Origin: Candidatus Babeliales bacterium
Lineage (GTDB): Bacteria > Babelota > Babeliae > Babelales > JABDEC01
DNA: 64,000 bases
Reading direction: 5' to 3'
NCBI GenBank assembly: GCA_031292305.1
Contig: JARLHJ010000047.1
Location: 31,334 to 95,333 of the forward strand
A program made the position numbers and the translations under genes. Positions 985 through 55,220 of this stretch are shown piece by piece. The notes beneath the pieces are model-generated. The model was not told the DNA's origin, did no database searches, and worked only from the letters and a program-made list of their open reading frames with translations. Each line of letters opens with the position of its first letter. Within the stretch, counting starts at the first letter, position 1.

Positions 985-2010
985 TTAAGCCCCCACTTTA
1001 GAATTAAGGTTTAATGTATGGAAATGTATGATTCTAAATCGCGTTGGGTATCTAACAGAAAGTACAAAAAGCAGTGCGATGAAAATTGAAATATATGGAA
1101 ATTCTATTTCTGGGTTAATAAGAGCTAGTTTGCTTAATGAAGTGGTCACATTAATTGGGTTTGGAATATCAGCGTTATTAGAGTTATATTTTTCATTATA
1201 ATCTAATGCTTTTAAGACAATATTCATTCTTTCTAAATGGTTATTGCCAGCACAGATAAAAATATATTTTTTATCGCTATGTTGTAAAATTGTATGAATT
1301 ATTTTTGCATCAATTAAAAGGTAATAATCAAATACAAAGTTATTAAAATTACTTCGAAATGGTTCTTTACCAAATAAAGCTTCTATTTGGTCAATGTTCG
1401 CTGTGCTATTATTATTTAGTAAATCTAAAAGTTCTTTATTATTAGTTAAAATAGAATCGACTAAGTCTTTGTAGTATTGATTGGCAATTGGATTGTCATT
1501 ATAATTTTGTATTTCATTCATCACATAAAAAATACTGTCCACAAATTGAGATGTTAAAGTATGGCCTTTTGCATATAAAAACACAGCATGTCTAAATTCA
1601 ATGTTTTCAGTTTTTAAATCTTCGTTTTTCATAAAATCATTAATATAGCTCATGCAATTTGAAAAGTTTGAATCTTCATTTTTTTGTCTCAAATTTACAA
1701 AGAAATTGTCTGTAAACCCATCTTTACCTTGTGGGTAATACATATCTTCTAAAATGAAAAGAGATTGCTCTTTTGGAAATTGTTTAGCAAAATTTACTAA
1801 GCTTAAAGCATCTGCTTTATTTAGGCATTTTATCTCTAAATTACTTAAAGATGGATGGTCTGAATTTTTTTGGCAGCCAAAATGGGCATCGCCTGCTTCA
1901 ATAACAATTTGACTTTGGTTGTCTAATGCTTGCAAATTGACTATAAAAGCCCTTAGCGAGGCGAAATTTAAGATAAGCATAGAAAGTATTAGTAAATTTT
2001 TTATTTTCAT
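985..2010 (-). CDS. Exported hypothetical protein with conserved His/Glu motifs (possible ChaN/TraB/Tiki-like fold), first of a tandem pair
   Basis: 341-aa ORF with a signal-like N-terminus (MKIKNLLILSMLILNFASLRA). Motifs EAGDAHFGC, FILEDMY, IEFRH and IFICAGNNHLERM are present. There is a hydrophobic segment near the C-terminus (YISIFIALLFVLSV). Its stop (987-985) directly abuts the ATG of the next copy. Confidence 0.6.
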   Translation of the reverse strand: MKIKNLLILSMLILNFASLRAFIVNLQALDNQSQIVIEAGDAHFGCQKNSDHPSLSNLEIKCLNKADALSLVNFAKQFPKEQSLFILEDMYYPQGKDGFTDNFFVNLRQKNEDSNFSNCMSYINDFMKNEDLKTENIEFRHAVFLYAKGHTLTSQFVDSIFYVMNEIQNYNDNPIANQYYKDLVDSILTNNKELLDLLNNNSTANIDQIEALFGKEPFRSNFNNFVFDYYLLIDAKIIHTILQHSDKKYIFICAGNNHLERMNIVLKALDYNEKYNSNNADIPNPINVTTSLSKLALINPEIEFPYISIFIALLFVLSVRYPTRFRIIHFHTLNLNSKVGA

Positions 2011-4493: not shown

Positions 4494-6428
4494 ATGAAAA
4501 TTAAATTATTTATAGCATTAATGGCTATAATTGCTTGTTATGCAGCAGAAGATCAAAATATGCAAGATGCCCCACCGGTTTCAAGTTCATCTACAGCGGC
4601 AAGCACACAAGCAGCAAGCTCAATTCAAAGTCAGGAAGAATTAGCAGCATCAACTTCGTCAGCGTCTGCAAGTGCATCTGCGTCACCAATAGTAGCGCAG
4701 CCACTTTCACCAGAACAACAAAAACAAGCAAAATTTAAAGAAGCTATTGAAGCTTTACAAAATATTAACGAAATACCGATAGAATTTGCAGATAAAACTT
4801 TGAATATTAATAGCACTGAAAGTTTATACCGTAAAACATTTAAAGAATTAATCAAAGAACATTTTGAGCAATATGTTCCATTTTTAATTGCTCAAGTAAC
4901 CACTAAGCTTAATGGTGAGGTAATTAAAGATTATTATGACGCTTTTCTTTTAAATAAAAATTTTTTAGTTGGAGGTTATAAAATTAATGCATTTCATCAT
5001 GCATTAAATCCAAAGTTGTTATTGAATAGAAAAAATCCATTAAATCAGCAAAATATTACACAGCCAATTGAGTATTATGTTTTGAATCCAGTAAGTGAAG
5101 ATCCGAATTTATTTAAATATATTGGCGCAGAAGATGACATGCTTAAACGTCCTGCAGAAAAGATATTTCTAGAGGCTATGACGCAAAATGAATTTTCGGA
5201 TTACGCAGATTGGTTGATTCCTGTTGATAGTGATTTGAATCCCGAACTTATTACAAAGGAGCTTGTTGAAGTATTAAAATGGTTCGCAATGCAAAAAAAA
5301 TTGAATATTAGTGCACAGTTTAAATTGGGTAAGTTTTTTTTTAATTTAGGTGACAACAACCAGTTTGTTTATGATCTTTTAAGTAGATTAATTGCAAACC
5401 CTGAAACATCTGCGAATATAAGATCGTATGCCAATAGCATGAAGTTTGATGCTTTATCAAAATTATCGCCCCAAGAAAAATTGCAAATGGGTCTTGCTTA
5501 TTATAGCGGCAAGATTGGATTGGGTGGGCGTAATTATAAAAATGCATTAGAGCTACTAGAAAGTGGTCTTTCTGGGGTTAAAGGTCAAAAGAGTGATCTT
5601 ATAACAAAATCAAAGCTAGTATTAAGTAATATTTACTTTTTAGGTAAAGCAGGCAACCAAAAAAATTATCAAAGAGTGAAATTATTTAACGAAGAATTAT
5701 TAAATAGTAATTTGCTTATTGATACTGACAAGAAGCTTGCGTTGAAGTTTCTTATAAATATTTACGGTAGTGGAGGTTTTGGTGTTGAACAAAATCTTGA
5801 AAATGTTGTTACTTTAATTAAAAGATTATATTTAATCGATCCGTTATATTTAAATATAGATTATATTTATAATATAGCTAAGAAGTTATTAGCTAAACAA
5901 AAATATAAATCCCAAAAAGAATTATTAGAAATAATTTTGAATCATCCCCAAATAGATCAGATAGATCCATGTGTTTTTATGAATGCACAATATGATTTGG
6001 CTTATATATATATTAAGGGACTTGGCTTTGAAACGAATCGCAGCAAGGCTATTGTTTTATGGAAATCAATTATTAGTAATGAGAATAATTGCAATAATCA
6101 CGTTAAGTTGCAAGCATATGCAAACCTAGCAGACGTTTTATTTAACGCAAAAGGTTTAAAACAAGATTTAGAAATTGCGCAAGAATATTTTAAAATTGTT
6201 TTAAATGATAAAGATAGCACTGAAAAGCTCAAACAACATGCGCAAATGAGATTAAAACAAATTGAAGTATTGTCTGGCAGTTGTTCAAAGCAATTAATAA
6301 ATATTAAGCCCAATGAAGGTAAGCCAACTTCAGCAGCCCAGCCTTTAAAGCGTAAAAAGGACAAAGATGCACCAGGGCCAGATGAAAAGAAAGCTAGAAT
6401 AACCGAAGAGGAAAATGATGAAAATTAA
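4494..6428 (+). CDS. Exported Sel1-like repeat protein with Ser/Ala-rich linker and C-terminal bipartite basic (NLS-like) tail
   Basis: Signal-like N-terminus MKIKLFIALMAIIACYA. Low-complexity SSSSTAASTQAASS..SASASASASP region. Several Sel1-type units (LAYYSGKIGLGGRNYKNALELL, IYFLGKAGNQKNYQRV, IYGSGGFGVEQNLENV, YIYIKGLGFETNRSKAI, LFNAKGLKQDLEIAQEYF). The tail reads KRKKDKDAPGPDEKKAR..EEENDEN. Confidence 0.7.
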   Translation: MKIKLFIALMAIIACYAAEDQNMQDAPPVSSSSTAASTQAASSIQSQEELAASTSSASASASASPIVAQPLSPEQQKQAKFKEAIEALQNINEIPIEFADKTLNINSTESLYRKTFKELIKEHFEQYVPFLIAQVTTKLNGEVIKDYYDAFLLNKNFLVGGYKINAFHHALNPKLLLNRKNPLNQQNITQPIEYYVLNPVSEDPNLFKYIGAEDDMLKRPAEKIFLEAMTQNEFSDYADWLIPVDSDLNPELITKELVEVLKWFAMQKKLNISAQFKLGKFFFNLGDNNQFVYDLLSRLIANPETSANIRSYANSMKFDALSKLSPQEKLQMGLAYYSGKIGLGGRNYKNALELLESGLSGVKGQKSDLITKSKLVLSNIYFLGKAGNQKNYQRVKLFNEELLNSNLLIDTDKKLALKFLINIYGSGGFGVEQNLENVVTLIKRLYLIDPLYLNIDYIYNIAKKLLAKQKYKSQKELLEIILNHPQIDQIDPCVFMNAQYDLAYIYIKGLGFETNRSKAIVLWKSIISNENNCNNHVKLQAYANLADVLFNAKGLKQDLEIAQEYFKIVLNDKDSTEKLKQHAQMRLKQIEVLSGSCSKQLINIKPNEGKPTSAAQPLKRKKDKDAPGPDEKKARITEEENDEN

Positions 6429-8301
6429 ATTATTTATATTGTGTTTAATAACATTATTTTTAAATTCATCTGAAGATAATGAAATGAAAGATGTTCCTGC
6501 TAGTTCATCTCAGGCTGCAAGCGCAGCCGCAGCATTGCCTGCAGCACCACCTGAAGATGTTGAAATGAGAGATGTGCCGGTTCAGATAAATTCTACGTCG
6601 TCATCAAGCTCTTCAGGACCTGTTCAATTTGAACAGGCTTTAGAAAGATTGCAAACAGTTAATGAAATACCAATTGAAGATACTGGAGATTTAAATATTA
6701 ATCAGGTTGAAAGATTAACAAATAAAACATTTAAGCAATTAATAGAAGAGCATTTTAGGGAAAATGTACCATTGTTAATAGCAAAAATTACTACTATGGA
6801 AAATAGAATGCCAAAAATAGATTATTATGATGGATATAGCTTTAATAAATACTTGTCTGATGTTCATATATTGAAGATTGGCAATAAGTCTATGTTATTA
6901 AAAAAAGAAAAAATTGAATTTGACACTTTTGGTCTTTTAAAAGAGGTTAATTATTCAAAAGTAATAAACCCAGTTAATCAACAATTTATTAGAGAGCCAA
7001 TACAATATTATGTATTGACTACATCTGATCCATTTTTATTTAAAGATGTTAGTTCGTATATTCAATTCGGTGAGGCAAAAACAAGAGATTTATTAATATC
7101 AATTATGAGCCAAGCTGAATTATCAGAATTTTTTAATTTACATATACCTATTGATTTTTGTAAATTGAATGAGTTAACAGAAGAGGATAAGAATTTTCCT
7201 ATTGAAGCAATTCTTCAAGTCTTAACCTTTTTTTCTACAATAGAAAGGTTGAATTTTAAGGATCAATTAAGATTAGCCAAAATATTTTTTAACTTTGGAA
7301 AATACGGGCAGGCTTATGATCTATTAAATAAAATTATAGAAAAACCTGAGGCAACGCAAAATTTAAAATCTGAAGCTATAGCTTTAAAGTGGGAAGTATT
7401 ATCAAAGATTTCATCTGATGAGAAATTAACGTTAGGTCTTCATTATTTTTATTCTAAAACAAATCTTAATTATAAGCTCGCATTAGAGTTATTAGAAAGA
7501 TTTTTTTCTGAAGTTAGAGAAACATCAACAGAAGGTATTGCAAATGCAAAATATGCAATTGGTCTTATATACGCTATGGGTTTAGCTGGTGTTCAAAAAA
7601 ATTATCAAAGAGCTATGTTTTTATTTCAAGCTGCCCTTGACAGTAATTTGCTTAATGCTGATAGGGTAGTGAAAACTTTAAATTATCAGTTGGAAATTTA
7701 TGATACTGGTGGCTTTGGTATCCAAAAAAATGATGAAAAGATTTTTGAAATAATTAAAAAATTATATTTAATCAATCCAACGAAATTGGAGATAGGTCAT
7801 ATTTTTCGTATTGAAAATCATCTTCGACCTGAAAATTATAAAGTAGCAATAGATTTATTAGGAATGATTTTGAGTCGTTCAAATATTCAACCAAAAGTTT
7901 TTATGCAAGCGCAATTCCTTTTAGCTAAAATTCTAGAAGCAGAAGGAAGTGTTATGCAATCTATTCCTCTATATGAATCTATTATAAATAATCAATTTGA
8001 ATATAAGGTGAAATTATTGGCTTATTTTTCCCTTGGAAAAATATATACCTTGGGCAACAAAGATATAAAACAGGATTATGATTTGGCTCAAAAATATTTC
8101 AAGATTGTGCTTGAATCTTCAGACTCGCTTGAAAATGTTAAACATGAAATACGTAAATATCTAAAATATATTGCAGAAAACCAAGGTTTATCAAGTTCTA
8201 AAGAATCAAAGAAGCGAAAAAACCCAGATGATTTAGATAAAGATGGTGAAATTGAAGCTGGACCAGCAGAAAAAAAACAAAAAAGCTGTGATGAAAAATA
8301 G
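6415..8301 (+). CDS. Exported Sel1-like repeat protein, tandem paralog of 4494..6428, with NLS-like tail
   Basis: Colinear with the upstream gene (MKIKLFIL.., EDNEMKDVPA, LQTVNEIPIE, FKQLIEEHFRENVPLLIAKITT, Sel1 units such as IYAMGLAGVQKNYQRAMFLF and IYDTGGFGIQKNDEKI). The tail reads KKRKNPDDLDKDGEIEAGPAEKKQK. The start (ATG 6415 or 6418) overlaps the upstream stop at 6426-6428. Confidence 0.7.
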   Translation: MMKIKLFILCLITLFLNSSEDNEMKDVPASSSQAASAAAALPAAPPEDVEMRDVPVQINSTSSSSSSGPVQFEQALERLQTVNEIPIEDTGDLNINQVERLTNKTFKQLIEEHFRENVPLLIAKITTMENRMPKIDYYDGYSFNKYLSDVHILKIGNKSMLLKKEKIEFDTFGLLKEVNYSKVINPVNQQFIREPIQYYVLTTSDPFLFKDVSSYIQFGEAKTRDLLISIMSQAELSEFFNLHIPIDFCKLNELTEEDKNFPIEAILQVLTFFSTIERLNFKDQLRLAKIFFNFGKYGQAYDLLNKIIEKPEATQNLKSEAIALKWEVLSKISSDEKLTLGLHYFYSKTNLNYKLALELLERFFSEVRETSTEGIANAKYAIGLIYAMGLAGVQKNYQRAMFLFQAALDSNLLNADRVVKTLNYQLEIYDTGGFGIQKNDEKIFEIIKKLYLINPTKLEIGHIFRIENHLRPENYKVAIDLLGMILSRSNIQPKVFMQAQFLLAKILEAEGSVMQSIPLYESIINNQFEYKVKLLAYFSLGKIYTLGNKDIKQDYDLAQKYFKIVLESSDSLENVKHEIRKYLKYIAENQGLSSSKESKKRKNPDDLDKDGEIEAGPAEKKQKSCDEK

Positions 8302-10046: not shown

Positions 10047-11348
10047 ATGAATATTTCGATACTTACTCTTTTTCCTGAATTATATTCTGAATTTTTAAAG
10101 GCTAGCATAATAGGCAAAGCTCAAGATAAGAATAAAATAAATGCTGAATTAGTAAATTTTATAGATTTTTGCAACTCAAAAGAACGCGTAGATAGTCCTA
10201 CTTTTGGCCCAGGACCAGGAATGTTAATAAGGCCAGAAGTAGTAGAATCTGCAGTTACTCAGCAAGAACAAAAATTTGGTTCAGCATTTAAAATATTCTT
10301 TTCTCCTCATGGTAAAAAATTAGATCAGAATCTTTTAAAAGAACTTAGTGCAAAACTTGCTCAAGAAAAGCATATTATGCTTTTGGCTTCTAGATACGAA
10401 GGTATGGATGCCAGAGTAGAAGAATATTATGCAGATGAAATAATATCCTTGGGTGATTTTGTTTTAATGGGTGGTGATTTGCCAGCCATGTGTTTTTTGG
10501 AAGGTTTTTTAAGATTAATACCTGGGGTAGTTGGGAATTCAGATTCAATAGAAAATGATTCATTTTCAGGGCCATTAGTAGATCATCCTGAATATACTTC
10601 ACCTTTAGAATTTAAAGGTTTGCAAGTTCCCGAAGTTATAAGGTCAGGAAATCATGCTCTGATTCACGAATATAGGCAAAAAAAAGCGATTGAGCGTACG
10701 CTTAATGGTCATTTTAATTGGCTAAGATCGCAACCCTTAACAAAAGAATTAAAAGCTAAAGTTCACAAAGAAATGCCTACGCATTATGCAGTTTTAATGC
10801 ATGGTGATATTCTTTTAAAAGATAAAACTGTAGGGACTTCATCTGTAACTTCTTTAGATATCCATGATATTGCTAGATCTGCAATGACTTACGGTATTAA
10901 AAACTATTATATTGTGACTCCATTAAAAGATCAGCAAACAATTGTCCAAACTTTATTAGATTTTTGGAATATAGGCCATGGAATTGAATATAATATCCAT
11001 CGTCACAATGCAATAAAAATGGTTAGGCTTAATAATAATTTGGATGAAGTTTTAGCGCAGATAGAAAAGACTGAAGGGCAAAAGCCTTTGTTAATAGCTA
11101 CTTCTGCTAAATATCATAATAATACGGAAAGATATATTACGTATTTTGATCAAGCAAAAGTATGGAAGTCTAAACGTCCGGTATTGTTCATTTTTGGTAC
11201 AGGCCATGGTTTAGCAGATTATATACTAGATAGATGTGATTTTATCTTAGAGCCATTACATGGTTTTTCTGAATTCAATCATCTTTCAGTTAGATCTGCC
11301 GCTGCAGTTATATTTGATAAATGGTTTGGCGTTAATTTAAAAAAGTAA
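10047..11348 (+). CDS. trmD: tRNA (guanine37-N1)-methyltransferase TrmD fused to a second SPOUT-like RNA methyltransferase domain (TM1570/Methyltrn_RNA_4-like)
   Basis: Residues 1 to ~240 align by eye with TrmD (LFPE.., GPGPGML, RYEGMDARV, GDFVLMGGDLPAM, RSGNHA). Residues ~245-433 (from nt ~10779) carry SVTSLDIHDIARSA..YYIVTPL..LLIATSAK..LFIFGTGHGL..FNHLSVRSAAAVIFDKWFG, which I recognise as the TM1570-type SPOUT family. Confidence 0.8.
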   Translation: MNISILTLFPELYSEFLKASIIGKAQDKNKINAELVNFIDFCNSKERVDSPTFGPGPGMLIRPEVVESAVTQQEQKFGSAFKIFFSPHGKKLDQNLLKELSAKLAQEKHIMLLASRYEGMDARVEEYYADEIISLGDFVLMGGDLPAMCFLEGFLRLIPGVVGNSDSIENDSFSGPLVDHPEYTSPLEFKGLQVPEVIRSGNHALIHEYRQKKAIERTLNGHFNWLRSQPLTKELKAKVHKEMPTHYAVLMHGDILLKDKTVGTSSVTSLDIHDIARSAMTYGIKNYYIVTPLKDQQTIVQTLLDFWNIGHGIEYNIHRHNAIKMVRLNNNLDEVLAQIEKTEGQKPLLIATSAKYHNNTERYITYFDQAKVWKSKRPVLFIFGTGHGLADYILDRCDFILEPLHGFSEFNHLSVRSAAAVIFDKWFGVNLKK

Positions 11349-19210: not shown

Positions 19211-19555
19211 ATGTTAAAAAAATTATTATTAATTTCTTTATTTGTTTCTTCGTCATTGTTTAGTGCCGATTGGCAAGAAAAAGGTAAAGAATTGCTATCA
19301 AATGATAAAGTACAATCGGTAGTTTTTGGTGCTTTAACTGAAGTTACAGCTAAACATGCAATACGTTATTTTGCTGATAAAGGTGAGTATGCAAGAGCTG
19401 CAGCTTTAACTTCGATGATTTTTTTAGCAAACGGAATAAATGTTTTCCGAAATGGAAATGGTAGAATGGCTAGACTTTTAGCAACAATGTTTGGGGCCTT
19501 AAGCGTTGCATTTGTAAAAAATGATGCTTCATGGCTGAAAGCTGAAATAAGATAA
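19211..19555 (+). CDS. Small exported hypothetical protein
   Basis: 114 aa with signal-like MLKKLLLISLFVSSSLFSA. No recognisable motif. A terminator follows. Confidence 0.4.
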   Translation: MLKKLLLISLFVSSSLFSADWQEKGKELLSNDKVQSVVFGALTEVTAKHAIRYFADKGEYARAAALTSMIFLANGINVFRNGNGRMARLLATMFGALSVAFVKNDASWLKAEIR

Positions 19556-19577
19556 TATTTTTTATAATTTTTATTTG

Positions 19578-19613
19578 GCCGCATTGAGATTATGTCTTAA
19601 TGCGGCTTTTTCT
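19578..19613 (+). terminator. Rho-independent terminator
   Basis: GCCGCATT..AATGCGGC stem (19578-19606) followed by TTTTTCTTTT. Confidence 0.65.
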
Positions 19614-19761
19614 TTTATATAAAAGATAATTAATTAAATTTTGTATTAACCTATCTGAGAGCCATTTGTTTCTGATAGAAGAATGTAATATATGTAAAAT
19701 TATTGATCTTTGTGTCAAAAATACGCTATTATTAAACTATTAGTAATAAATACGGGAAGTT

Positions 19762-21216
19762 ATGAAAAATTATCTGAAAATCTTATTTTTTTTAAGTTGC
19801 TATGCGTTGCAAGCTTTGCAGCCCGCAAGTTCATCTTCGTCAGCTCCATCTAAATGCATATCAAATATTAATCCAATAATGAATTTTAAAGAATTTAAAA
19901 GCGCCGTAACGTCCGTTCAGATTTCACCTAACAATAAATTCTTGGCAGCTTCTGGAGTTGATGGGAAAGTAATAATATGGAATTTAGATTCAGGCAAGGT
20001 ATTTAATACATTAGAAGATGATCCAGAAAACTCTTATGCTCGTGGTGTTTCTTGGTCCCCTGATAGTAGTAAGCTGGCAGCAATATATCGTAATAAAAAA
20101 ATAATAATTTGGAATGTTGATCCTGAAAGTGGACGTGATTTGATTTTAGGCAGTGATATTGGATTATCAGATATTCCAATAGATGTTGCATGGTCACCTG
20201 TTGATGAATCTTTGATAGCAATTGCCATAGGTAATAATGTAGTAATCTATGATTGGGATCCCGAAACCTTAGATATTAATCCTTTAATAATTTTAAGAGG
20301 TCATACTGCAAAAATTAATTCAATTTCTTGGTCACCTAAAGGAAGTAGATTAGTTTCAGGTAGTTCTGATAAAACAGTAAGAATTTGGAATGTAAAAAAT
20401 AAAAGTGAATTAAAGAATATTTCTGAAACTGATTCTGTTAATAAAGTGTCATATTCCCCAGACGCACAATATATAATTTATTCTATGGTAGATAAAACGC
20501 TTACTATATTAAATGATTCTTATGAAAGAGTTGAAAAACTAAACATATTTAATAATGCTTTGGCATTAGAGTGGGCACCAAATTCCAATCTTTTTGTTTA
20601 TGGAAATACAATAGGTGAAATAAAAATTTGTAATTTAGAAGGTAATTTAGTAAAAAAAATAAAGCAAGATACTCCAATTACTGGATTATGTTGGTCTAAA
20701 GATTGTGATTTTTTAGCTTCAAGTTCAGCTGATGGAAGTGTTGTAGTAGAACCAGTAGAAATTTCAATATATGATTTATTGGCGGCTGGTATTCACTTTG
20801 ATTTTATAAACAATGAATTGTATTTAAATAATTTAGAATTGACAAGCTTAAAGGGTTTAGAAAAAATACCAAATATAAATATGATTGATACGTTAAATAT
20901 TAGTTTTAATAATTTAAAAAATCTGGATAATTTGCGAAATTTAAGAAATTTAAAAATTGTAAATTTATCTAATAATAAAATAAAGCATATTAAACTAGAA
21001 GATTTTGAAGGATTAGAAGCTTTAGAAGCAATAATATTGAATGATAATAAAATTCCAAATATAGATTTTGATTTGCAACTATTAAGAAACAATCATAGAA
21101 TGCTTAAAGATTTAATTATTTTAAATAATCCATTAGATTCTTTAACTAAGCTAATGTTAAAGCAGTTTTCTGAATCACCAAAAGCAAAAGAATCTGAAAT
21201 GTCAGTTTATTATTAA
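19762..21216 (+). CDS. Exported WD40-repeat + leucine-rich-repeat protein (family member 1)
   Basis: Signal-like N-terminus. WD40-type units (SVQISPNNKFLAASGVDGKVIIWNL, GVSWSPDSSKLAA, SISWSPKGSRLVSGSSDKTVRIWNV, LCWSKDCDFLASSSADGSV). C-terminal LRRs follow (LYLNNLELTSLKGLEKIPN..LNISFNNLKNLDNLRNLRNLKIVNLSNNKIKHI). Confidence 0.75.
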   Translation: MKNYLKILFFLSCYALQALQPASSSSSAPSKCISNINPIMNFKEFKSAVTSVQISPNNKFLAASGVDGKVIIWNLDSGKVFNTLEDDPENSYARGVSWSPDSSKLAAIYRNKKIIIWNVDPESGRDLILGSDIGLSDIPIDVAWSPVDESLIAIAIGNNVVIYDWDPETLDINPLIILRGHTAKINSISWSPKGSRLVSGSSDKTVRIWNVKNKSELKNISETDSVNKVSYSPDAQYIIYSMVDKTLTILNDSYERVEKLNIFNNALALEWAPNSNLFVYGNTIGEIKICNLEGNLVKKIKQDTPITGLCWSKDCDFLASSSADGSVVVEPVEISIYDLLAAGIHFDFINNELYLNNLELTSLKGLEKIPNINMIDTLNISFNNLKNLDNLRNLRNLKIVNLSNNKIKHIKLEDFEGLEALEAIILNDNKIPNIDFDLQLLRNNHRMLKDLIILNNPLDSLTKLMLKQFSESPKAKESEMSVYY

Positions 21217-22959: not shown

Positions 22960-23526
22960 ATGGCTCCAGTTGATAAAGAAAAAAAAGTTAAAAAAGTAGC
23001 TAAAAAAGCTGCTCCAAAAGCAGAAGTTAAGAAAGCTGCTAAACCTGCAAAAGCTGTAAAGCCTGCTGAAACTGTAAAAAAAGATTATGAAATTCAATCT
23101 GGTATAGATATGAATAAAACATTCTTTATGCGTAAAGAAGACGCAATTCCAAAATGGCGTGTAATAGACGCTGAAGGTCAAATTTTAGGTAGATTAGCAA
23201 CTGACTTAGCTACAATTTTACGTGGCAAAGATAAAGCTGTTTATACACCACATACAATGACAGGCGATTATATAATTATTATTAACGCTGAAAAAGTTGT
23301 TTTAACAGGTAAGAAAATGGATCAAAAAGAATATATCCGTTATTCTGGCTGGATCGGTGGTAAAAAAACTGAAGTAGCTAAAGACATTATGGCTAAGCAC
23401 CCTGAACGCATTATTGAAATGGCTGTTAAGCGTATGTTGCCAAGAAATAAGTTGAGCGATGCTGTTATGCGTAGATTATTGATTTATGCTGGATCTGAAC
23501 ATCCTCATCAAGCACAAGTCGGATAA
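22960..23526 (+). CDS. rplM: 50S ribosomal protein L13 with a ~50-aa Lys/Ala/Pro-rich N-terminal extension
   Basis: The canonical L13 core starts at M51 (MNKTFFMRKEDAIPKWRVIDAEGQILGRLA..). The ORF extends upstream to ATG 22960 with AAGAGG 10 nt upstream, encoding MAPVDKEKKVKKVAKKAAPKAEVKKAAKPAKAVKPAETVKK. No rpsI follows. Confidence 0.9.
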   Translation: MAPVDKEKKVKKVAKKAAPKAEVKKAAKPAKAVKPAETVKKDYEIQSGIDMNKTFFMRKEDAIPKWRVIDAEGQILGRLATDLATILRGKDKAVYTPHTMTGDYIIIINAEKVVLTGKKMDQKEYIRYSGWIGGKKTEVAKDIMAKHPERIIEMAVKRMLPRNKLSDAVMRRLLIYAGSEHPHQAQVG

Positions 23527-47537: not shown

Positions 47538-47753
47538 CTTAAAATTTATGATGGTGTCCATTTGGGTTTTTTTCGAGCATCAAATTTAATACTTTAAACC
47601 CCACAAAATGAAATAAAATTTAATAAAATTATTACTTATCAGTAAGTTTGCACGATCGATGATTTAATTCACATAGAAATGAATTTAATTGACTTTCCTC
47701 TTTTCACTTTGTTAAGCTATATAGTAAAGCAGGTTATCAATCAAGGAGAAAGT

Positions 47754-50093
47754 ATGAAAAAGGTAATAATTATTGTCTTAAGTTTATTTATTTTAAGTAA
47801 AAATACATTAAAAGCTGATTTAAAAGCTGTGCAAAAAGATGATATTAAATTATTAGAAGGTGTAACAAGAGCGAAACTTGAAGCTATTCAAGCAAAATCT
47901 AAAGAATTAACAAAAGAAACAGAATTGAAAAAAATAACAGATGAATTGGAAAATAAAAAAAGTGAAGCAAAAGATATAAAACAAAAAGAAAAGCTGTTAA
48001 GAGATCAATTTAATGATGCTAGAATTAAGGGGAATGTAAAAGTATTAAATCAATTTAAGCAGATTAAAGAAAAATCAAAAAAATTAAAAGATGAAGTTCA
48101 AGAAAAAGTAAATGAAGTTTTAAAAGTTAAAGATGAAGTAAAAAAATCAAAAATTACTTTAGATTTAACAGAAAAACAGGCAAATGAAGAAATTCAAAAA
48201 AAATCAGAAGAATTAAAAGAAAAGAGAAAAGAATTAATGATAGAAGCTGCGAATGTTGAATCTGAATTTCATACTAATATATTAAATACAAGCCCGGTCA
48301 TGCAAGAAAAAGCTAAAGAATTATTAGCACAATATGATAGGCTCAAAACTCAATTAGAAGTATATAATCAAGCTGAAATGTATATAGCTGCTCAAAAGGC
48401 AACTATCTCAGTAGAGCAAGAAAAAGCATTACTCGATGCCTATATTAAAGCAATAAACAATCTGAAAAGTAAGCAAGAAGTTGAAACAGAAGCTAAAAAA
48501 GCCACGCAAAATGCAAAATTAACAGCTGCACCATATATTATAAAATTAAGTGATACTGCTCAATTAAATCTAAAAAATATAGAACCTTTCTCTAAAAAAA
48601 GCTTTGAAGAATTGTTAAATGAGCGAATTAAAGAGAATCTACCGTTGATAATATCTCAAATCGTAACAGCAGGTAGTGGTTCAGAATTTATGGATGCATT
48701 TGAAATGAGCAAAGAGATGTTTTTTTATGACAATTTACCTTTTGATATTAATGAAACAACAACTTATCAAAATAAACCAATTAAAAATATTGTTTATTAT
48801 AAAATTAAAGCTCCCAGTTCAAATCAAGTTATTAGTTTTGAAATAAATGAATTCGAAAATGGGCATGTTGTTAATAATAATTATGATCAATTAGCTAACT
48901 TCTTTAAAAATCTGTCACAAAAAGAGCTATTAGATATTCTTGAGCATGTTGAAGATATGTTAACTCGACCAGATATGGATTTTGCTCATTTAGAACCAGC
49001 TGAGAGAAAATTAATAAACTTAGCCATCGAAGTATTAAAAAATGGAAATTTACCATTGGCTAAAAAAGTATCTGAAATTAAACATTTTAATTCATTTCAT
49101 ATACGTTCATATAATTTTACTAATTTAATTGTAGATATATTAATTAAAGAAGATTTTGATTCACAAAAAAAATATCAAGAATTGCAGGTTATCTTTGATC
49201 AAATAATGTCAGAAGCAAGCCTTTATGAAAAAGATAAATTTCTAAATTATTTTTATAAAAAGGGTAATCTATGGCAAGCAGAGAGATTATATGAATCTTT
49301 AATGAAGAATCCACAAACTTCAGTTGATCAAAAAGTATTTGTAATGCTTAACTACGCAAATACAATACTTGAAGGTAATGAAAAGACTAAATCAAATGAA
49401 ATAAGAGCATTTGAAATGTATAAGCAAATTATGGATAATCCTCAATTAGCATCTCAATTGAATGATTATGAGAGAACTCAAATTAACTTTAAACTGGGCT
49501 TAGCTTATGAAAATGGAATTGAAACTACTAATAAAGTGGAATCATCTGTTTCAAAAAATATAGCTGCAGCGATAAAGATATTTAGTGATATAGTGCAAAA
49601 TCCTTTACCATTGAGCTTAAAGCCATATCAAAGAGCTGATTTAGATTTAATTAAAATTGAAGCTGCATTAGAGCTTGGAAAAATTTATGTTAATGAATTG
49701 CCTTTAAATTCTGCTAATATAAATAAGGCAAGAGAGTTATTTGAGGGTATTATTAAAAGCAAAACAGCACTGCAACAAATAAAAAATACAACTTTAAAAT
49801 ATATAACAAAGCTTAATGAAAGAATTAAAAATGAAATGCATGGTGTAGAAAATATTAGTATTAGGGAAAAAGATAAAGATGAAAGCAAAGAAGAATTAGA
49901 AACTAAATACCAAGAAACCAAAGTAAAAGAAGATAAAAAAGAAGAAATAAAATTGGAAGAAAAACTGGATGGGAAAGAAGAGAAAAAAAGAAGATCCCCT
50001 AGCCCAAAATTTAAAGTAACAATTCACCCATATAAAACTCCAATTAATTTAAGTCCTAAATCAGGGCAATCTTTAACCAATGACCTTGATTAA
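47754..50093 (+). CDS. Exported coiled-coil + Sel1/TPR-like repeat protein, third member of the 4494/6415 family
   Basis: AAGGAG SD before ATG 47754 (MKKVIIIVLSLFILSKNTLKA). A ~250-aa Lys/Glu-rich heptad-like region. The shared block SFEELLNERIKENLPLIISQIVTAGSG corresponds to FKELIKEHFEQYVPFLIAQVTT. Sel1/TPR-like units (LGLAYENGIE.., LELGKIYVNELPLNSANINKARELF). Basic and acidic tail KEEKKRRSPSPKFK. Confidence 0.65.
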   Translation: MKKVIIIVLSLFILSKNTLKADLKAVQKDDIKLLEGVTRAKLEAIQAKSKELTKETELKKITDELENKKSEAKDIKQKEKLLRDQFNDARIKGNVKVLNQFKQIKEKSKKLKDEVQEKVNEVLKVKDEVKKSKITLDLTEKQANEEIQKKSEELKEKRKELMIEAANVESEFHTNILNTSPVMQEKAKELLAQYDRLKTQLEVYNQAEMYIAAQKATISVEQEKALLDAYIKAINNLKSKQEVETEAKKATQNAKLTAAPYIIKLSDTAQLNLKNIEPFSKKSFEELLNERIKENLPLIISQIVTAGSGSEFMDAFEMSKEMFFYDNLPFDINETTTYQNKPIKNIVYYKIKAPSSNQVISFEINEFENGHVVNNNYDQLANFFKNLSQKELLDILEHVEDMLTRPDMDFAHLEPAERKLINLAIEVLKNGNLPLAKKVSEIKHFNSFHIRSYNFTNLIVDILIKEDFDSQKKYQELQVIFDQIMSEASLYEKDKFLNYFYKKGNLWQAERLYESLMKNPQTSVDQKVFVMLNYANTILEGNEKTKSNEIRAFEMYKQIMDNPQLASQLNDYERTQINFKLGLAYENGIETTNKVESSVSKNIAAAIKIFSDIVQNPLPLSLKPYQRADLDLIKIEAALELGKIYVNELPLNSANINKARELFEGIIKSKTALQQIKNTTLKYITKLNERIKNEMHGVENISIREKDKDESKEELETKYQETKVKEDKKEEIKLEEKLDGKEEKKRRSPSPKFKVTIHPYKTPINLSPKSGQSLTNDLD

Positions 50094-52957: not shown

Positions 52958-53138
52958 AATTATCCTTCATTATTTAATCTGTTCTCTTGTTCTATTATGA
53001 TAGCACAGAGCTACATTAAATGTCAATATTTAGGCAAAAGACAGTTAATTTAAGGGTAAAAAGCACAAACTTATTATTGCTATTTGAATATATTTTGTGT
53101 TATTATTAACTTATAATTTAATTAAAAATAAGGAAAAT

Positions 53139-53615
53139 ATGAAATTATTAAATATTTTAGCATTTATAGTATTAAAAATAACTTTTTTAAGTCATTCAGC
53201 AGATTCAAACCCCATGGAAAGCAAAGCTCTAATAGAATTAATTTATGATATAACTAAAAATTCTGAAATAAAAAAACGATTATCTGAAAGCGCAGAATAT
53301 CTTAATTTATCGTCTTTAGGCCTTACTAGCCTAGAGGGCTTAGAAAAAATTATTAAACCCGAAACAATAAAATATTTAAACTTAGATAATAATAAAATAG
53401 AAGATATTGATGAAAGTTTTGTTTCGCTAATATTAAGTTTAAAAAATCTAAAATCTATAAGTTTAATCAATAATCCATTATCAGGTGAAAGCTTGGAAGC
53501 GTTAGCAGATTTAGTCCTAAAATTCCAATCAATTGTTCCTTTACATATTGTTACTCGAAATAAACCCAATTTAGCAGTTAATATTAATGCCCCTAAATGT
53601 GGGTGGACAAAGTAG
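53139..53615 (+). CDS. Exported leucine-rich-repeat-only protein
   Basis: AAGGA SD before ATG 53139. Signal-like MKLLNILAFIVLKITFLSHSA. LRRs LNLSSLGLTSLEGLEKII..LNLDNNKIEDID..LKSISLINNPLSGESLEAL are related to the C-termini of the WD40-LRR proteins. Confidence 0.65.
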   Translation: MKLLNILAFIVLKITFLSHSADSNPMESKALIELIYDITKNSEIKKRLSESAEYLNLSSLGLTSLEGLEKIIKPETIKYLNLDNNKIEDIDESFVSLILSLKNLKSISLINNPLSGESLEALADLVLKFQSIVPLHIVTRNKPNLAVNINAPKCGWTK

Positions 53616-53624
53616 GGAGGTTAT

Positions 53625-55220
53625 ATGAAAAGTTTTTTGAAATTACTTTTAGTTTTATTTTCTTTTTCTATAAATGCATCTGAAAGCCCTAATTTGAAAC
53701 CATATATATCATATTTGTTAAAAGATTTTGTAGAAAATCATCCGGAACTTCCATCAGGTATCACAGATTTTAAAAATGCGCATGAAGGAATAATCACATC
53801 AGTCAAAATTTCACCAAATAATAAGTTATTGGCATCAGGTTCGGGTGATGGGTCTATAAAAATTTGGGATATCCATACAGGTAAATTTATTTATGAATTA
53901 AAAAAAGAAGATCATTTTGTACGTTCAATATCCTGGTCACCTGATAGTTCTATGTTGGCAATTCTATACAGAAATAGAAAATTAATAATATTTGATGTAA
54001 ATGATTCTAGGCTATTAGATGAAAAATCTTTTCAAACAGGTTTGCCAACAATTGTTTCTTGGTCGCCAGATGGTTCTAGAATAGCGGTTGGTGCAGAAAA
54101 TAAAATAATAATATATGCATTTAATGCAGGATGTTCTTTGCTAATGGGTCAAGAAGTTGTATTAAAAGATAAAAATAATACTACTACATCACTTATTTGG
54201 ATTTCTGATACTAAATTATTATCGGTAGGTAATAATGGAAAAGCAACTAGTTGGAGTGTTGATCATAAGATAAAAAAATCAATTCAATTGGATGATCTGA
54301 TTACTTCAGCTGATATACTTTCAAGATATTTTCTTTTTTCATTAAAAAATAAATCTATTGTTAAGTTGAACTGGGCAAAAGGAAATTATTTCTTATTGGA
54401 TGTCAAAGATATTATTAGGGCGCTAAAAGTATTAAAAAATACAGAATTTTTAGTGACCGGTGGGATTTCAGGAAATATTATAATTCGTAATATGATTGGA
54501 AAAACTAAAATTGTAGACACATATCAGGTAAGTGATTTGCCGATAACTGATATTGATTGGTCAAATGATGGTAAATTTATTGTTGCTTCTTCTGATAAAA
54601 CTTTAACAATTTGGAAAGATCCATTAAAAACTTTAAATTTAAATGCAAAGAATAGATCAATAAATGATTTGCTAGATTCTATAAATGATAATTATATAAC
54701 AGAAGAATTTAATGACATGACACAAGAATTTAATGAGATAGATATCGATGTAGATTCTTTATTTTTAAATGATTTAGATCTTACGAGTTTAAGCGGTTTA
54801 GAAACATTAATAACAAATCCAGATCGCATTGCGTTTGTGCTTCTAGAAAATAATAAAATTCGTTCATTGGATAATAAATTAAAACAATTTAAAGCTTTGA
54901 TGGAGTTAAATTTAGATGGTAATGAGATAAAAGATTTAAATGATAGCTTAGATGGTTTAGAAAATCTACAACTCGTTGATATAAATAGAAATAAATTAAC
55001 AAGTTTAGGAAGTTTAAAAGGGCTTCAAAAATTAGAAACTTTTAATGTTCAAGATAATCAGATAGTTGATATCGGAAATAGTTTTGATGATTTAATAGCA
55101 TCACAAACATTAAAAACTTTAAATATTTCAGGTAATCCGTTATCTCAAGAAAGTTTAGATAAATTACGGGCATTAAAAGCAGCTTCACCAGTAGGTTTAA
55201 AGATTGATGTTTTAGAGTAA
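53625..55220 (+). CDS. Exported WD40-repeat + leucine-rich-repeat protein (family member 2)
   Basis: Paralog of 19762..21216 (SVKISPNNKLLASGSGDGSIKIWDI, SISWSPDSSMLAILYRNRKLIIFDV, IDWSNDGKFIVASSDKTLTIWK). C-terminal LRRs (LFLNDLDLTSLSGLETL..LENNKIRSLDN..LNLDGNEIKDL..NRNKLTSL..NISGNPLSQESL). Confidence 0.75.
   Translation: MKSFLKLLLVLFSFSINASESPNLKPYISYLLKDFVENHPELPSGITDFKNAHEGIITSVKISPNNKLLASGSGDGSIKIWDIHTGKFIYELKKEDHFVRSISWSPDSSMLAILYRNRKLIIFDVNDSRLLDEKSFQTGLPTIVSWSPDGSRIAVGAENKIIIYAFNAGCSLLMGQEVVLKDKNNTTTSLIWISDTKLLSVGNNGKATSWSVDHKIKKSIQLDDLITSADILSRYFLFSLKNKSIVKLNWAKGNYFLLDVKDIIRALKVLKNTEFLVTGGISGNIIIRNMIGKTKIVDTYQVSDLPITDIDWSNDGKFIVASSDKTLTIWKDPLKTLNLNAKNRSINDLLDSINDNYITEEFNDMTQEFNEIDIDVDSLFLNDLDLTSLSGLETLITNPDRIAFVLLENNKIRSLDNKLKQFKALMELNLDGNEIKDLNDSLDGLENLQLVDINRNKLTSLGSLKGLQKLETFNVQDNQIVDIGNSFDDLIASQTLKTLNISGNPLSQESLDKLRALKAASPVGLKIDVLE

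What the first reader, a model, noticed from the sequence alone, without database searches (positions are those of the whole stretch)
19762..21216. Signal-peptide-bearing WD40 + LRR fusion protein (family member 1)
This architecture is uncommon in bacteria. A hydrophobic signal-like N-terminus and Ser-rich linker are followed by a WD40-type propeller, recognisable from repeated ..SWSP(D/K)(S/G)S.. and ..D(K/G).(V/I).IW(N/D). units. After that come roughly five or more leucine-rich repeats with a recurring L.L.SL.GLE..P signature. A clear paralog lies at 53625-55220. Both domains are protein-protein interaction scaffolds that are abundant in eukaryotes, which makes this a candidate host-mimicking effector or surface adaptor.
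Basis: partly seen in the sequence, partly recalled or inferred. Interest (0 to 1): 0.55.

Follow-up and report, generated by a model that had tools for sequence, protein, structure and literature searches.

The report
Exported WD40–LRR repeat protein, Babeliales
This gene from an uncultured host-dependent bacterium (Babeliales, phylum Dependentiae/TM6) encodes an exported protein with no enzyme domain, made of a seven-bladed WD40 propeller fused to a short leucine-rich-repeat arc; it is a real but fairly ordinary example of the secreted "eukaryote-like" repeat proteins already described for this phylum.

Summary
ORF 19762-21216 (+, 484 aa) has a signal-peptide-like N-terminus and a Ser-rich linker. 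It also has a WD40 domain (Pfam 113 bits, cut-off 27) modelled as a closed seven-bladed propeller, and about five C-terminal LRRs (LRR_8 33.5 bits, cut-off 27). The paralog at 53625-55220 is real (30% identity over the full length, E 6e-44) and has the same architecture. One detail is wrong: "L.L.SL.GLE" does not recur. It occurs once per protein, in the first LRR.

The protein is 100% identical to an NCBI "hypothetical protein" from a Candidatus Babeliales MAG. Secreted WD40, LRR and ankyrin proteins are already described for this phylum. [quoted passage not shown]

The closest WD40 relatives that carry a source name are bacterial, GC content matches the flanks, and the neighbouring genes are housekeeping. 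Nothing points to a recent transfer from a eukaryote.

The C-terminal LRR module also occurs as a free-standing secreted LRR protein, in this window (53139-53615) and in other low-GC metagenomic bacteria. I found the WD40-LRR fusion only in these two paralogs, but my searches were not exhaustive.

Most likely it is a Sec-exported, non-catalytic protein-binding scaffold aimed at the host. Export and the target are inferred, not shown. It is a new member of a known kind, of modest interest.

The parts
19577..19607 (+). Intrinsic terminator-like hairpin of the upstream gene (14-bp stem plus T-run). It isolates the target as its own transcription unit.
   Evidence: sequence
19672..19732 (+). Two overlapping sigma-70-like promoter matches upstream of the target. 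They are consensus matches only.
   Evidence: The region holds 20 sites against 15.7 expected, so this is weak evidence.
19754..19759 (+). Ribosome-binding site GGGAAG, 2 nt before the ATG
19762..21216 (+). Complete CDS, 484 aa. It is identical to NCBI 'hypothetical protein P4L22_07340 [Candidatus Babeliales bacterium]'.
19762..19815 (+). Signal-peptide-like segment, aa 1-18 (MKNYLK / ILFFLSCYALQA). Probable SPase I site ALQA|LQP. No proper lipobox.
   Evidence: modelled as helix 2-17 followed by disorder. The cleavage site is inferred by eye.
19816..19872 (+). Ser-rich, low-confidence linker, aa 19-37 (LQPASSSSSAPSKCISNINP...)
   Evidence: sequence; pLDDT below 50 for residues 1-37
19873..20757 (+). 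Seven-bladed WD40 beta-propeller, aa 38-332. N-terminal strand 40-42 completes blade 7 ('velcro' closure).
20758..20808 (+). Short helical connector, aa 333-349 (EISIYDLLAAG...). It is conserved as 'S(I/V)xDLL' ahead of the LRR cap in related LRR proteins.
20809..21171 (+). LRR domain, aa 350-470, with five repeats (cores at aa 352, 375, 397, 421, 448). The first repeat carries the family cap LELTSLKGLE. The repeats are SDS22-like/typical class.
21172..21213 (+). Low-confidence C-terminal tail, aa 471-484. No recognisable anchor motif by inspection.
   Evidence: pLDDT below 50; sequence
53625..55220 (+). Paralog, 531 aa, with the same signal-like N-terminus. It has a 7-blade WD40 (blades 4-5 degenerate), a disordered linker of about 40 aa, and six LRRs.
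53139..53615 (+). LRR-only relative, 158 aa from the ATG with an AAGGAAAA ribosome-binding site. It has a signal-like N-terminus and the same LGLTSLEGLE cap. Its stop codon lies 9 nt before the paralog's start, so the two are probably co-transcribed.
   Evidence: P0216

Best explanation
The gene encodes a Sec-exported protein with no detected enzyme domain, built from two protein-binding scaffolds in series. These are a closed seven-bladed WD40 propeller (aa 38-332) and a five-repeat SDS22-like LRR arc (aa 350-470). A cleavable N-terminal signal peptide and a flexible Ser-rich linker precede them.

It belongs to the lineage-specific, fast-evolving repertoire of secreted 'eukaryote-like' repeat proteins of Dependentiae (TM6), which are obligate parasites of protists. 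It probably arose when a propeller gene fused with a free-standing secreted LRR gene of the kind still present at 53139-53615. The fusion was then duplicated.

Proposed mechanism:
1. Sec carries the protein across the inner membrane.
2. The type II secretion system releases it from the cell. [quoted passage not shown] Release in outer-membrane vesicles is an alternative.
3. In the host compartment, the propeller face and the concave LRR face each bind a host protein. The protein would then act as an adaptor, tether or decoy, not as an enzyme.

Shown here: the domain architecture, the paralogy, the taxonomic origin, and the lack of orthologs or enzyme domains. Inferred: export, which rests on sequence heuristics. 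Not tested: passage across the outer membrane, host targeting, and the identity of any ligand.
For: - Architecture: WD40 scores 113 bits and many propeller families match. LRR_8 scores 33.5 bits, above its cut-off of 27. The AlphaFold model (pLDDT 75.9, pTM 0.74) has 28 propeller strands plus 5 LRR strands. Foldseek gives TM 0.90 to the 7-bladed prokaryotic WD40 5yzv and 0.83 to WDR5. The LRR profile hits solved LRR proteins. Its best hits outside this genome are yeast SDS22 proteins, E 5e-16.
- No catalytic domain appears in Pfam (among the families listed) or NCBIfam.
- Export: the n/h/c-type N-terminus is shared by the target, the paralog and ORF3. The heuristic separates them from all ribosomal and cytoplasmic proteins in the window.
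- Organism: the protein is 100% identical to a Candidatus Babeliales MAG protein. The window has 30.7% GC.
- Lineage-specific and fast-evolving: the paralog is the closest known relative of the propeller (108 bits single-domain, against 76 bits or less for anything else fetched). The best non-self hit in the full-length search of the 5.8-billion-protein collection (which did not retrieve the paralog) is 27% identical.
- Fusion origin: the same signal peptide, 'S.xDLL' helix and 'L.LTSL.GLE' cap occur in free-standing, often tandem, LRR proteins. Examples are ORF3 here, P0282 on L005, and P0286 with its neighbour on L004, where a separate WD40 gene lies about 3 kb away.
- Phylum context: Babela encodes WD40 and LRR proteins, some predicted to be secreted, and type II secretion was the only system detected (PMC4378268). 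WD40, F-box, LRR and TPR proteins occur in all TM6 genomes examined, as do type II secretion components (PMC4776705). In Chromulinavorax, 44% of CDS and 78% of ankyrin proteins carry signal peptides (PMC6561590).
Against: - No dedicated signal-peptide predictor could be run. The h-region contains a Cys and the cleavage site is only moderately canonical.
- A Sec signal delivers a protein only to the periplasm. Nothing in the sequence shows passage across the outer membrane.
- The type II secretion genes of this particular genome were not examined, because they lie outside the window.
- No genomic neighbour hints at a function. The flanks are YidC, RecR, aminopeptidase P, a Na+/H+ antiporter and L13.
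- No host ligand is predicted.
- The models rest on a two-sequence alignment. The last 50 residues of the target and blades 4-5 of the paralog have low confidence.
Confidence: 0.5

Rival explanations
1. It is a surface-exposed adhesin or invasin. After export the protein stays on the bacterial surface, and its LRR arc (internalin-like) and/or propeller bind a host-cell surface receptor to promote attachment or uptake by the protist.
For: It has a signal-like N-terminus. The LRR region gives weak matches to class 1 internalin and to the Leptospira LIC LRR and fibronectin-binding families. Dependentiae must be taken up by phagotrophic hosts (PMC4378268, PMC6561590).
Against: By inspection I saw no anchoring device: no proper lipobox, no second TM segment, no C-terminal beta-barrel and no LPXTG/GW-type module. 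The internalin model scores 18.7 bits against a cut-off of 1050. The C-terminal tail is short and is not conserved between the paralogs.
Confidence: 0.22
2. It is a resident periplasmic or envelope protein with a bacterial housekeeping role. It would act as a propeller scaffold analogous to TolB or BamB, with the LRR as an added interaction module.
For: Sec signals most simply imply a periplasmic location. Periplasmic beta-propellers are common in diderm bacteria (general knowledge). The neighbours include the envelope-related YidC and, next to the paralog, SpoIID.
Against: No TolB, BamB or other curated family matches at E <= 0.01. The propeller is WD40-type, not PD40- or PQQ-type. There are no orthologs: the best non-self hit is 27% identical over 58%. 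The two paralogs share only 30% identity, which does not fit conserved housekeeping. The gene is monocistronic with unrelated neighbours.
Confidence: 0.1
3. It is a recently acquired eukaryotic gene (host mimic). On this view the WD40 and/or LRR parts were captured from a protist host and copy a specific host protein such as SDS22 or LRWD1.
For: The best named LRR hits outside the genome are eukaryotic SDS22 proteins, E 5e-16 and 37% identity over 54% of the module. Both domain types are abundant in eukaryotes.
Against: The top WD40 relatives, where named, are bacterial: Babeliales, Ktedonobacteraceae, Hydrogenedentes, Anaerolineaceae and Planctomycetes. The first named eukaryote appears only at E 1e-16. 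The top structural match is a prokaryotic WD40. GC of 26-30% equals that of the flanks. The domain order is the reverse of LRWD1, and PF23211 reaches only E 0.16. SDS22 has 11-12 repeats (my own knowledge) against 5 here. The same capped LRR module occurs in other bacteria.
Confidence: 0.05
4. It is a cytoplasmic protein, and the hydrophobic N-terminus is not a functional export signal.
For: No predictor was run. AT-rich genomes produce Ile/Leu/Phe/Lys-rich N-termini by composition.
Against: The N-terminal pattern is conserved in all three related proteins although their sequences have diverged. It is absent from every cytoplasmic housekeeping protein in the same window. Relatives in other bacteria carry the same pattern.
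Confidence: 0.05

Closest known systems
Secreted 'eukaryote-like' repeat proteins of Dependentiae/TM6 (ankyrin, WD40, LRR, TPR and F-box proteins of Babela massiliensis, TM6SC1 and Chromulinavorax destructans)
   Same: Same phylum. These proteins also combine a signal peptide with a non-catalytic repeat scaffold. They are lineage-specific, duplicated and fast-evolving, and are presumed to leave the cell by Sec plus type II secretion (PMC4378268, PMC4776705, PMC6561590).
   Different: The passages I read from those papers list WD40 and LRR proteins separately. Here the two scaffolds are fused in one polypeptide, in the order WD40 then LRR. I found this fusion only in this window's two paralogs. 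None of these proteins, this one included, has an experimentally known target.
Free-standing signal-peptide LRR proteins with the 'L.LTSL.GLE' first-repeat cap (ORF 53139-53615 here; P0282 on L005; P0286 and its neighbour on L004)
   Same: They share the signal peptide, the 'S(I/V)xDLL' helix, the capped first LRR, SDS22-like/typical repeats and a terminal 'NNPL' repeat. Identity to the target module is 26-36%. They often occur as tandem gene pairs.
   Different: They lack the N-terminal WD40 propeller. The family is unnamed, and the organisms of L004 and L005 were not identified.
SDS22 (PP1 regulatory subunit) and the SDS22-like LRR class
   Same: SDS22 proteins are the best named sequence matches to the LRR module, E 5e-16. 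The repeat length is about 22-24 residues, with the core LxxLxLxxNxI.
   Different: The module has 5 repeats where SDS22 has 11-12 (my own knowledge). Identity is 37% over about half the module. It is attached to a propeller and a signal peptide. PP1 binding was not tested.
Prokaryotic WD40 domains (Thermomonospora curvata WD40 domain, PDB 5yzv) and WDR5-type seven-bladed propellers
   Same: Seven four-stranded blades. TM-score is 0.90 to 5yzv and 0.83 to WDR5, with 23-25% identity. The target shares the 'SWSPDG...D.T..IW' repeat style of its closest bacterial WD40 hits.
   Different: Those proteins carry no signal peptide and no LRR (my own knowledge; not checked here). Several blades here have lost the WD dipeptide.
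LRWD1/ORCA (eukaryotic LRR + WD40 protein)
   Same: It combines the same two domain classes in a single polypeptide.
   Different: The order is reversed (LRR N-terminal, WD40 C-terminal). LRWD1 is nuclear and binds ORC (my own knowledge). The LRWD1 LRR model reaches only E 0.16 and 12 bits against a cut-off of 28 in the paralog, and does not hit the target.

Membership tests
WD40 repeat beta-propeller (Pfam PF00400) | Sequence match to the WD40 repeat model above the curated threshold | tested here: met
   113.1 bits against a cut-off of 27, E 3.4e-33. The paralog scores 87 bits.
WD40 repeat beta-propeller (Pfam PF00400) | Closed ring of four-stranded blades, typically seven | tested here: met
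   The model has 28 strands between aa 40 and 331, forming 7 blades with N-terminal strand closure. Most of the propeller has pLDDT of about 80-94. TM-score is 0.90 to the solved 7-bladed WD40 5yzv. This is a prediction, not a solved structure.
Leucine-rich repeat domain (LRR_8 / LRR_4; SDS22-like class) | Sequence match to LRR models above the curated threshold | tested here: met
   Target C-terminus: LRR_8 33.5 bits against 27. Paralog: LRR_4 35.1 and LRR_8 34.0 bits against 27.
Leucine-rich repeat domain (LRR_8 / LRR_4; SDS22-like class) | At least three tandem LxxLxLxxN units at 20-30 residue spacing, forming a parallel beta-strand arc | tested here: met
   Cores lie at aa 352, 375, 397, 421 and 448. 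Short strands sit at 352, 377, 399 and 423 with pLDDT about 72-84. The last repeat has low confidence.
SDS22 orthologs (PP1 regulators) | About 11-12 SDS22-type repeats and a PP1-binding concave surface | tested here: not met
   Only 5-6 repeats are present. The best SDS22 hit is 37% identical over 54% of the module. PP1-contact residues were not examined.
Sec/SPase I signal peptide | Positively charged n-region, hydrophobic h-region of 7-15 residues, and small residues at -3/-1 | tested here: inconclusive
   The n-region MKNYLK has 2 Lys. The h-region is ILFFLSCYALQAL (KD 2.37). A possible cleavage site is ALQA|L. The heuristic is specific within the window. SignalP and Phobius were not available, so the cleavage site is not established.
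Bacterial lipoprotein (SPase II) | Lipobox L-[AS]-[GA]-C at the end of the h-region, with the Cys about 15-35 residues from the start | tested here: not met
   The only early Cys is C13 in 'FLSC'. It lies in the middle of the hydrophobic stretch and is too close to the N-terminus. The paralog has no Cys there (read from the sequence).
TolB / BamB periplasmic propellers | Match to the curated TolB or BamB family models, with wide orthology | tested here: not met
   NCBIfam has no such hit at E <= 0.01. No ortholog exceeds 27% identity.
Internalins (class 1) | N-terminal cap, LRR, Ig-like inter-repeat region and a cell-wall anchor, with a score above the family cut-off | tested here: not met
   NF033188 scores 18.7 bits against a cut-off of 1050, over the LRR only. 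No anchor motif is seen by inspection.
LRWD1/ORCA | N-terminal LRWD1-type LRR followed by a C-terminal WD40 | tested here: not met
   The order is reversed. PF23211 gives E 0.16 in the paralog only.
Secreted eukaryote-like repeat proteins of Dependentiae (informal class) | Encoded by a Dependentiae genome, with a repeat scaffold, a predicted signal peptide and no enzyme domain | tested here: met
   The class is described in PMC4378268, PMC4776705 and PMC6561590.
Secreted eukaryote-like repeat proteins of Dependentiae (informal class) | Actual delivery into the host, and binding of a host protein | not testable with these tools
   This needs secretome or localisation experiments and interaction assays.

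The most novel reading that the evidence does not exclude
The WD40-LRR fusion is a lineage-specific bivalent tether secreted into the protist host. Its SDS22-like LRR arc would capture one specific host protein, for example a PP1-type phosphatase as SDS22 does. The propeller would bind a second host protein or organelle surface. The result would be a forced host-host or host-bacterium contact, a type of Dependentiae effector not yet described. The neighbouring LRR-only protein (53139-53615) could then act as a competing or regulating single-valent form.
Probability: 0.1. Interest if true: 0.55.

Novelty: new member of a known kind. Interest (0 to 1): 0.3.

Why it matters
Dependentiae are widespread, mostly uncultured parasites of protists, and none of their presumed effectors has a known target. 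This protein and its paralog are small, soluble and free of detectable enzyme domains, with two well-understood binding folds. That makes them practical baits for finding host partners. The locus also shows how the repertoire grows, by fusing a free-standing secreted LRR module to a propeller and then duplicating the result. Otherwise the finding mainly confirms what comparative genomics of this phylum already reports. It does not open a new question.

Tried and rejected
1. A genome-contig scan with the two-paralog alignment returned only three remote WD40 matches (24-29% identity, propeller only). The window's own genome did not appear, so it is not among the species representatives.
2. An exhaustive profile search of the LRR module against 1.84 billion representatives filled its top 150 with giant multi-LRR proteins. 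The only single-stretch hits were the window's own three proteins. It says little about distant relatives with the same architecture.
3. Word-index searches with the LRR profile and with a junction profile (last blades + linker + first LRRs) returned only short LRR-only proteins and did not even recover the target. They gave no evidence for or against the fusion elsewhere.
4. Local HMM checks found that none of the 119 closest WD40 relatives has this LRR. None of the 256 fetched LRR proteins has a WD40 except the paralog. No ORF in the 10 fetched loci has both.
5. Two metagenome scans were run. The LRR-cap pattern found 490 pattern matches but no relative. The propeller patterns found five remote WD40 loci, none reaching the LRR.
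6. The look-up of encoding contigs for the target returned no record.
7. The afdb50 fold library, which might have shown proteins with the same two-domain fold, was not available.
8. Lipoprotein, TolB/BamB, internalin and LRWD1 memberships were considered and rejected.
9. Recent horizontal transfer was considered and found unsupported.
Full report
**1. What is in the sequence**

A GGGAAG ribosome-binding site sits at 19754-19759. The upstream gene (19211..19555) ends in a strong hairpin terminator at 19577-19607. Promoter-like hexamers lie at 19672-19732. The downstream gene is convergent. The target therefore looks like a single-gene transcription unit. The window has 30.7% GC. The gene's GC of 26-30% matches its flanks at 27-34%.

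**2. Domains**

- *WD40.* Pfam gives WD40 (PF00400) at 113 bits against a cut-off of 27, plus many propeller families.
- *LRR.* The C-terminal 158 residues scanned alone give LRR_8 at 33.5 bits (cut-off 27). LRR_4, LRR_9 and LRR_EndoS fall just below their thresholds.
- *Model.* The AlphaFold2 model (pLDDT 75.9, pTM 0.74, built on a two-sequence alignment) shows the following:
  - an N-terminal helix at 2-17;
  - a disordered stretch at 18-37, which is the PASSSSSAPS linker;
  - 28 beta-strands between residues 40 and 331. These form seven four-stranded blades, and the N-terminal strand 40-42 closes the last blade;
  - a short helix at 336-341;
  - LRR-type strands at 352, 377, 399 and 423, with a low-confidence fifth repeat.
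- *Structural matches.* Foldseek against the PDB puts a prokaryotic seven-bladed WD40 (5yzv, Thermomonospora) first at TM 0.90. WDR5 follows at about 0.83.
- *Repeat count.* A regular-expression pass finds LRR cores at aa 375, 397, 421 and 448. Adding the capped first repeat at about aa 352 gives five repeats.
- *LRR class.* A profile of the LRR module hits solved LRR proteins in general. In the 5.8-billion-protein collection its best named hits outside this genome are yeast SDS22 proteins at E 5e-16. That places the repeats in the SDS22-like/typical class.
- *No enzyme domain.* Nothing catalytic appears in the Pfam families listed (best 25 per protein) or in NCBIfam.

**3. N-terminus**

MKNYLK is followed by ILFFLSCYALQAL. 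This gives the charged n-region and hydrophobic h-region of a Sec signal. A plausible cleavage site is ALQA|LQP, and there is no second TM-like segment. The only early Cys (C13) sits inside the hydrophobic core and too close to the start to be a lipobox.

I could not run SignalP. As a control I applied one simple rule to all 69 plausible ORFs in the window. It flags 14 of them, including the target, the paralog and the LRR-only ORF. It flags none of the ribosomal or cytoplasmic housekeeping proteins. Export is therefore well supported but still inferred.

**4.

The ORF at 53625..55220 (531 aa) aligns with the target over its full length at 30% identity, E 6e-44. Its model has the same plan: seven blades (blades 4-5 at low confidence), a disordered linker of about 40 residues, and six LRR strands.

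It is the closest known relative of the target's propeller. Its single-domain score is 108 bits, against 76 bits or less for anything else fetched.

Immediately upstream, with 9 nt between its stop codon and the paralog's start, lies a 158-aa ORF (53139..53615). It has a signal-like N-terminus and an LRR domain only.

All three proteins share a motif, L[EDG]LTSL[KSE]GLE. It occurs once per protein, in the first LRR, and follows a short S(I/V)xDLL helix. It is a family-specific first-repeat cap.

**5. Organism and relatives**

The protein is 100% identical to NCBI [quoted passage not shown] on a 143.7-kb contig. The next best hit in that search, which did not retrieve the window's own paralog, is 27% identical over 58% of the query, covering the propeller only.

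Among hits that carry a source name, the better-scoring ones are bacterial: Babeliales, Ktedonobacteraceae, Hydrogenedentes, Anaerolineaceae and Planctomycetes. Named eukaryotic proteins first appear at about E 1e-16. Several of the closest hits, such as P0003 from Babeliales, also start with signal-like sequences.

The neighbouring genes are housekeeping. They include YidC, RecR, aminopeptidase P, a Na+/H+ antiporter, L13, an M50 protease and the ribosomal-protein operon. Nothing suggests a mobile element or a functional operon partner.

**6. How common is the fusion?**

None of the 119 closest WD40 relatives carries this LRR. None of the 256 fetched LRR relatives carries a WD40 except the paralog.

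The genome and metagenome scans returned only remote propeller matches that stop before the LRR. The cap-pattern scan found nothing. No ORF in any fetched locus has both domains.

The LRR module itself does exist elsewhere as a free-standing, signal-bearing and often tandemly duplicated protein in low-GC metagenomic bacteria. P0282 sits on L005 with an LRR paralog next to it. P0286 and its neighbour sit on L004, a 1.6-Mb contig where a separate WD40 gene lies about 3 kb away.

The simplest history is that a propeller gene fused with such a secreted LRR gene, and the fusion was then duplicated. My searches were biased by the tools, through word indexes, a top-150 limit and narrow patterns. I therefore cannot claim that the architecture is absent elsewhere.

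**7. Comparison with what is known**

The class is well described for this phylum:
- Pagnier et al. 2015 (PMC4378268) report several WD40 proteins, other propellers and an LRR protein in Babela massiliensis. Some are predicted to be secreted. Seventy-nine of 126 ankyrin proteins carry signal peptides. Type II secretion was the only secretion system detected.
- Yeoh et al. 2016 (PMC4776705) find WD40, F-box, LRR and TPR proteins and type II secretion components in all TM6 genomes they examined.
- Deeg et al. 2019 (PMC6561590) find signal peptides on 44% of all CDS and on 78% of ankyrin proteins in Chromulinavorax destructans.

The target fits this class in every feature I could test. It does not belong to TolB/BamB, the internalins, LRWD1 or the SDS22 orthologs. 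The protein itself is deposited only as "hypothetical".

**8. Most likely mechanism and rivals**

My best reading (confidence about 0.5) is a Sec-exported, non-catalytic, two-surface binding scaffold. It would be released by type II secretion or in vesicles and would bind host proteins as an adaptor, tether or decoy. The architecture, paralogy and taxonomy are shown. Export is inferred from sequence. Release from the cell and the host target are untested.

The rivals are:
- a surface adhesin or invasin (about 0.22), weakened by the absence of any recognisable anchor;
- a periplasmic housekeeping scaffold (about 0.1), weakened by the lack of orthology and the fast divergence;
- a recent eukaryotic acquisition (about 0.05), not supported by the nearest relatives or by composition;
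- a cytoplasmic protein with a spurious signal (about 0.05).

**9. Verdict**

It is a new member of a known kind, and the domain fusion may be lineage-specific. Interest is 0.3.

Noticed in passing
window 53139-53615 (+): A 158-aa ORF with a signal-like N-terminus and an LRR domain only (NCBI P4L22_07590). It shares the 'LGLTSLEGLE' cap, and its stop codon lies 9 nt before the WD40-LRR paralog's start, so the two probably form an operon. The ORF listing extends it to a GTG at 53097, but the ATG at 53139 has the ribosome-binding site.
   Followed up: partly
window 4494-6428 and 6415-8301 (+): Two tandem, overlapping paralogs (644 and 628 aa) with signal-like N-termini (MKIKLFI...) followed by a Ser-rich stretch. 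They hit DUF5092 and give sub-threshold Sel1-repeat hits. This is another duplicated, probably secreted repeat-protein family.
   Followed up: no
window 44965-45408 and 45442-46107 (+): A tandem pair of small ORFs with nearly identical signal-like N-termini (MKFI[IN]VLLFVLF[AT]NLYCADPS). They sit directly after the ribosomal-protein/rpoA region. Their Pfam content was not checked.
   Followed up: no
window 19211-19555 (+): A 114-aa ORF with a signal-like N-terminus, no Pfam family and only far-sub-threshold NCBIfam hits. It lies directly upstream of the target and ends in a 14-bp-stem terminator at 19577-19607.
   Followed up: partly
window 10047-11348 (+): A single 433-aa ORF combines a TrmD-type tRNA (m1G) methyltransferase domain (aa 23-219) with a second SAM-dependent RNA methyltransferase domain, PF09936 (aa 247-427). 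This looks like a fusion of two RNA methyltransferases.
   Followed up: no
window 22960-23526 (+): Ribosomal protein L13 carries an N-terminal extension of about 60 residues rich in Lys, Ala and Pro (MAPVDKEKKVKKVAKKAAPKAEVKKAAKPAKA...). The Pfam L13 domain starts only at residue 65.
   Followed up: no
window 47679-50093 (+) and 985-2010 (-): An 804-aa ORF and a 341-aa ORF with no Pfam match at E <= 0.001. The 341-aa one has a signal- or TM-like N-terminus.
   Followed up: no
L004 3266-4705 (+) and 7988-8705 (-): On a 1.6-Mb metagenomic contig (ena:ERZ25039592:contig_689; fetched locus 39% GC), two tandem 234/235-aa signal-bearing LRR proteins carry the same first-repeat cap. A separate WD40 gene lies about 3 kb away. 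These may be the unfused counterparts of the modules fused in the window.
   Followed up: partly
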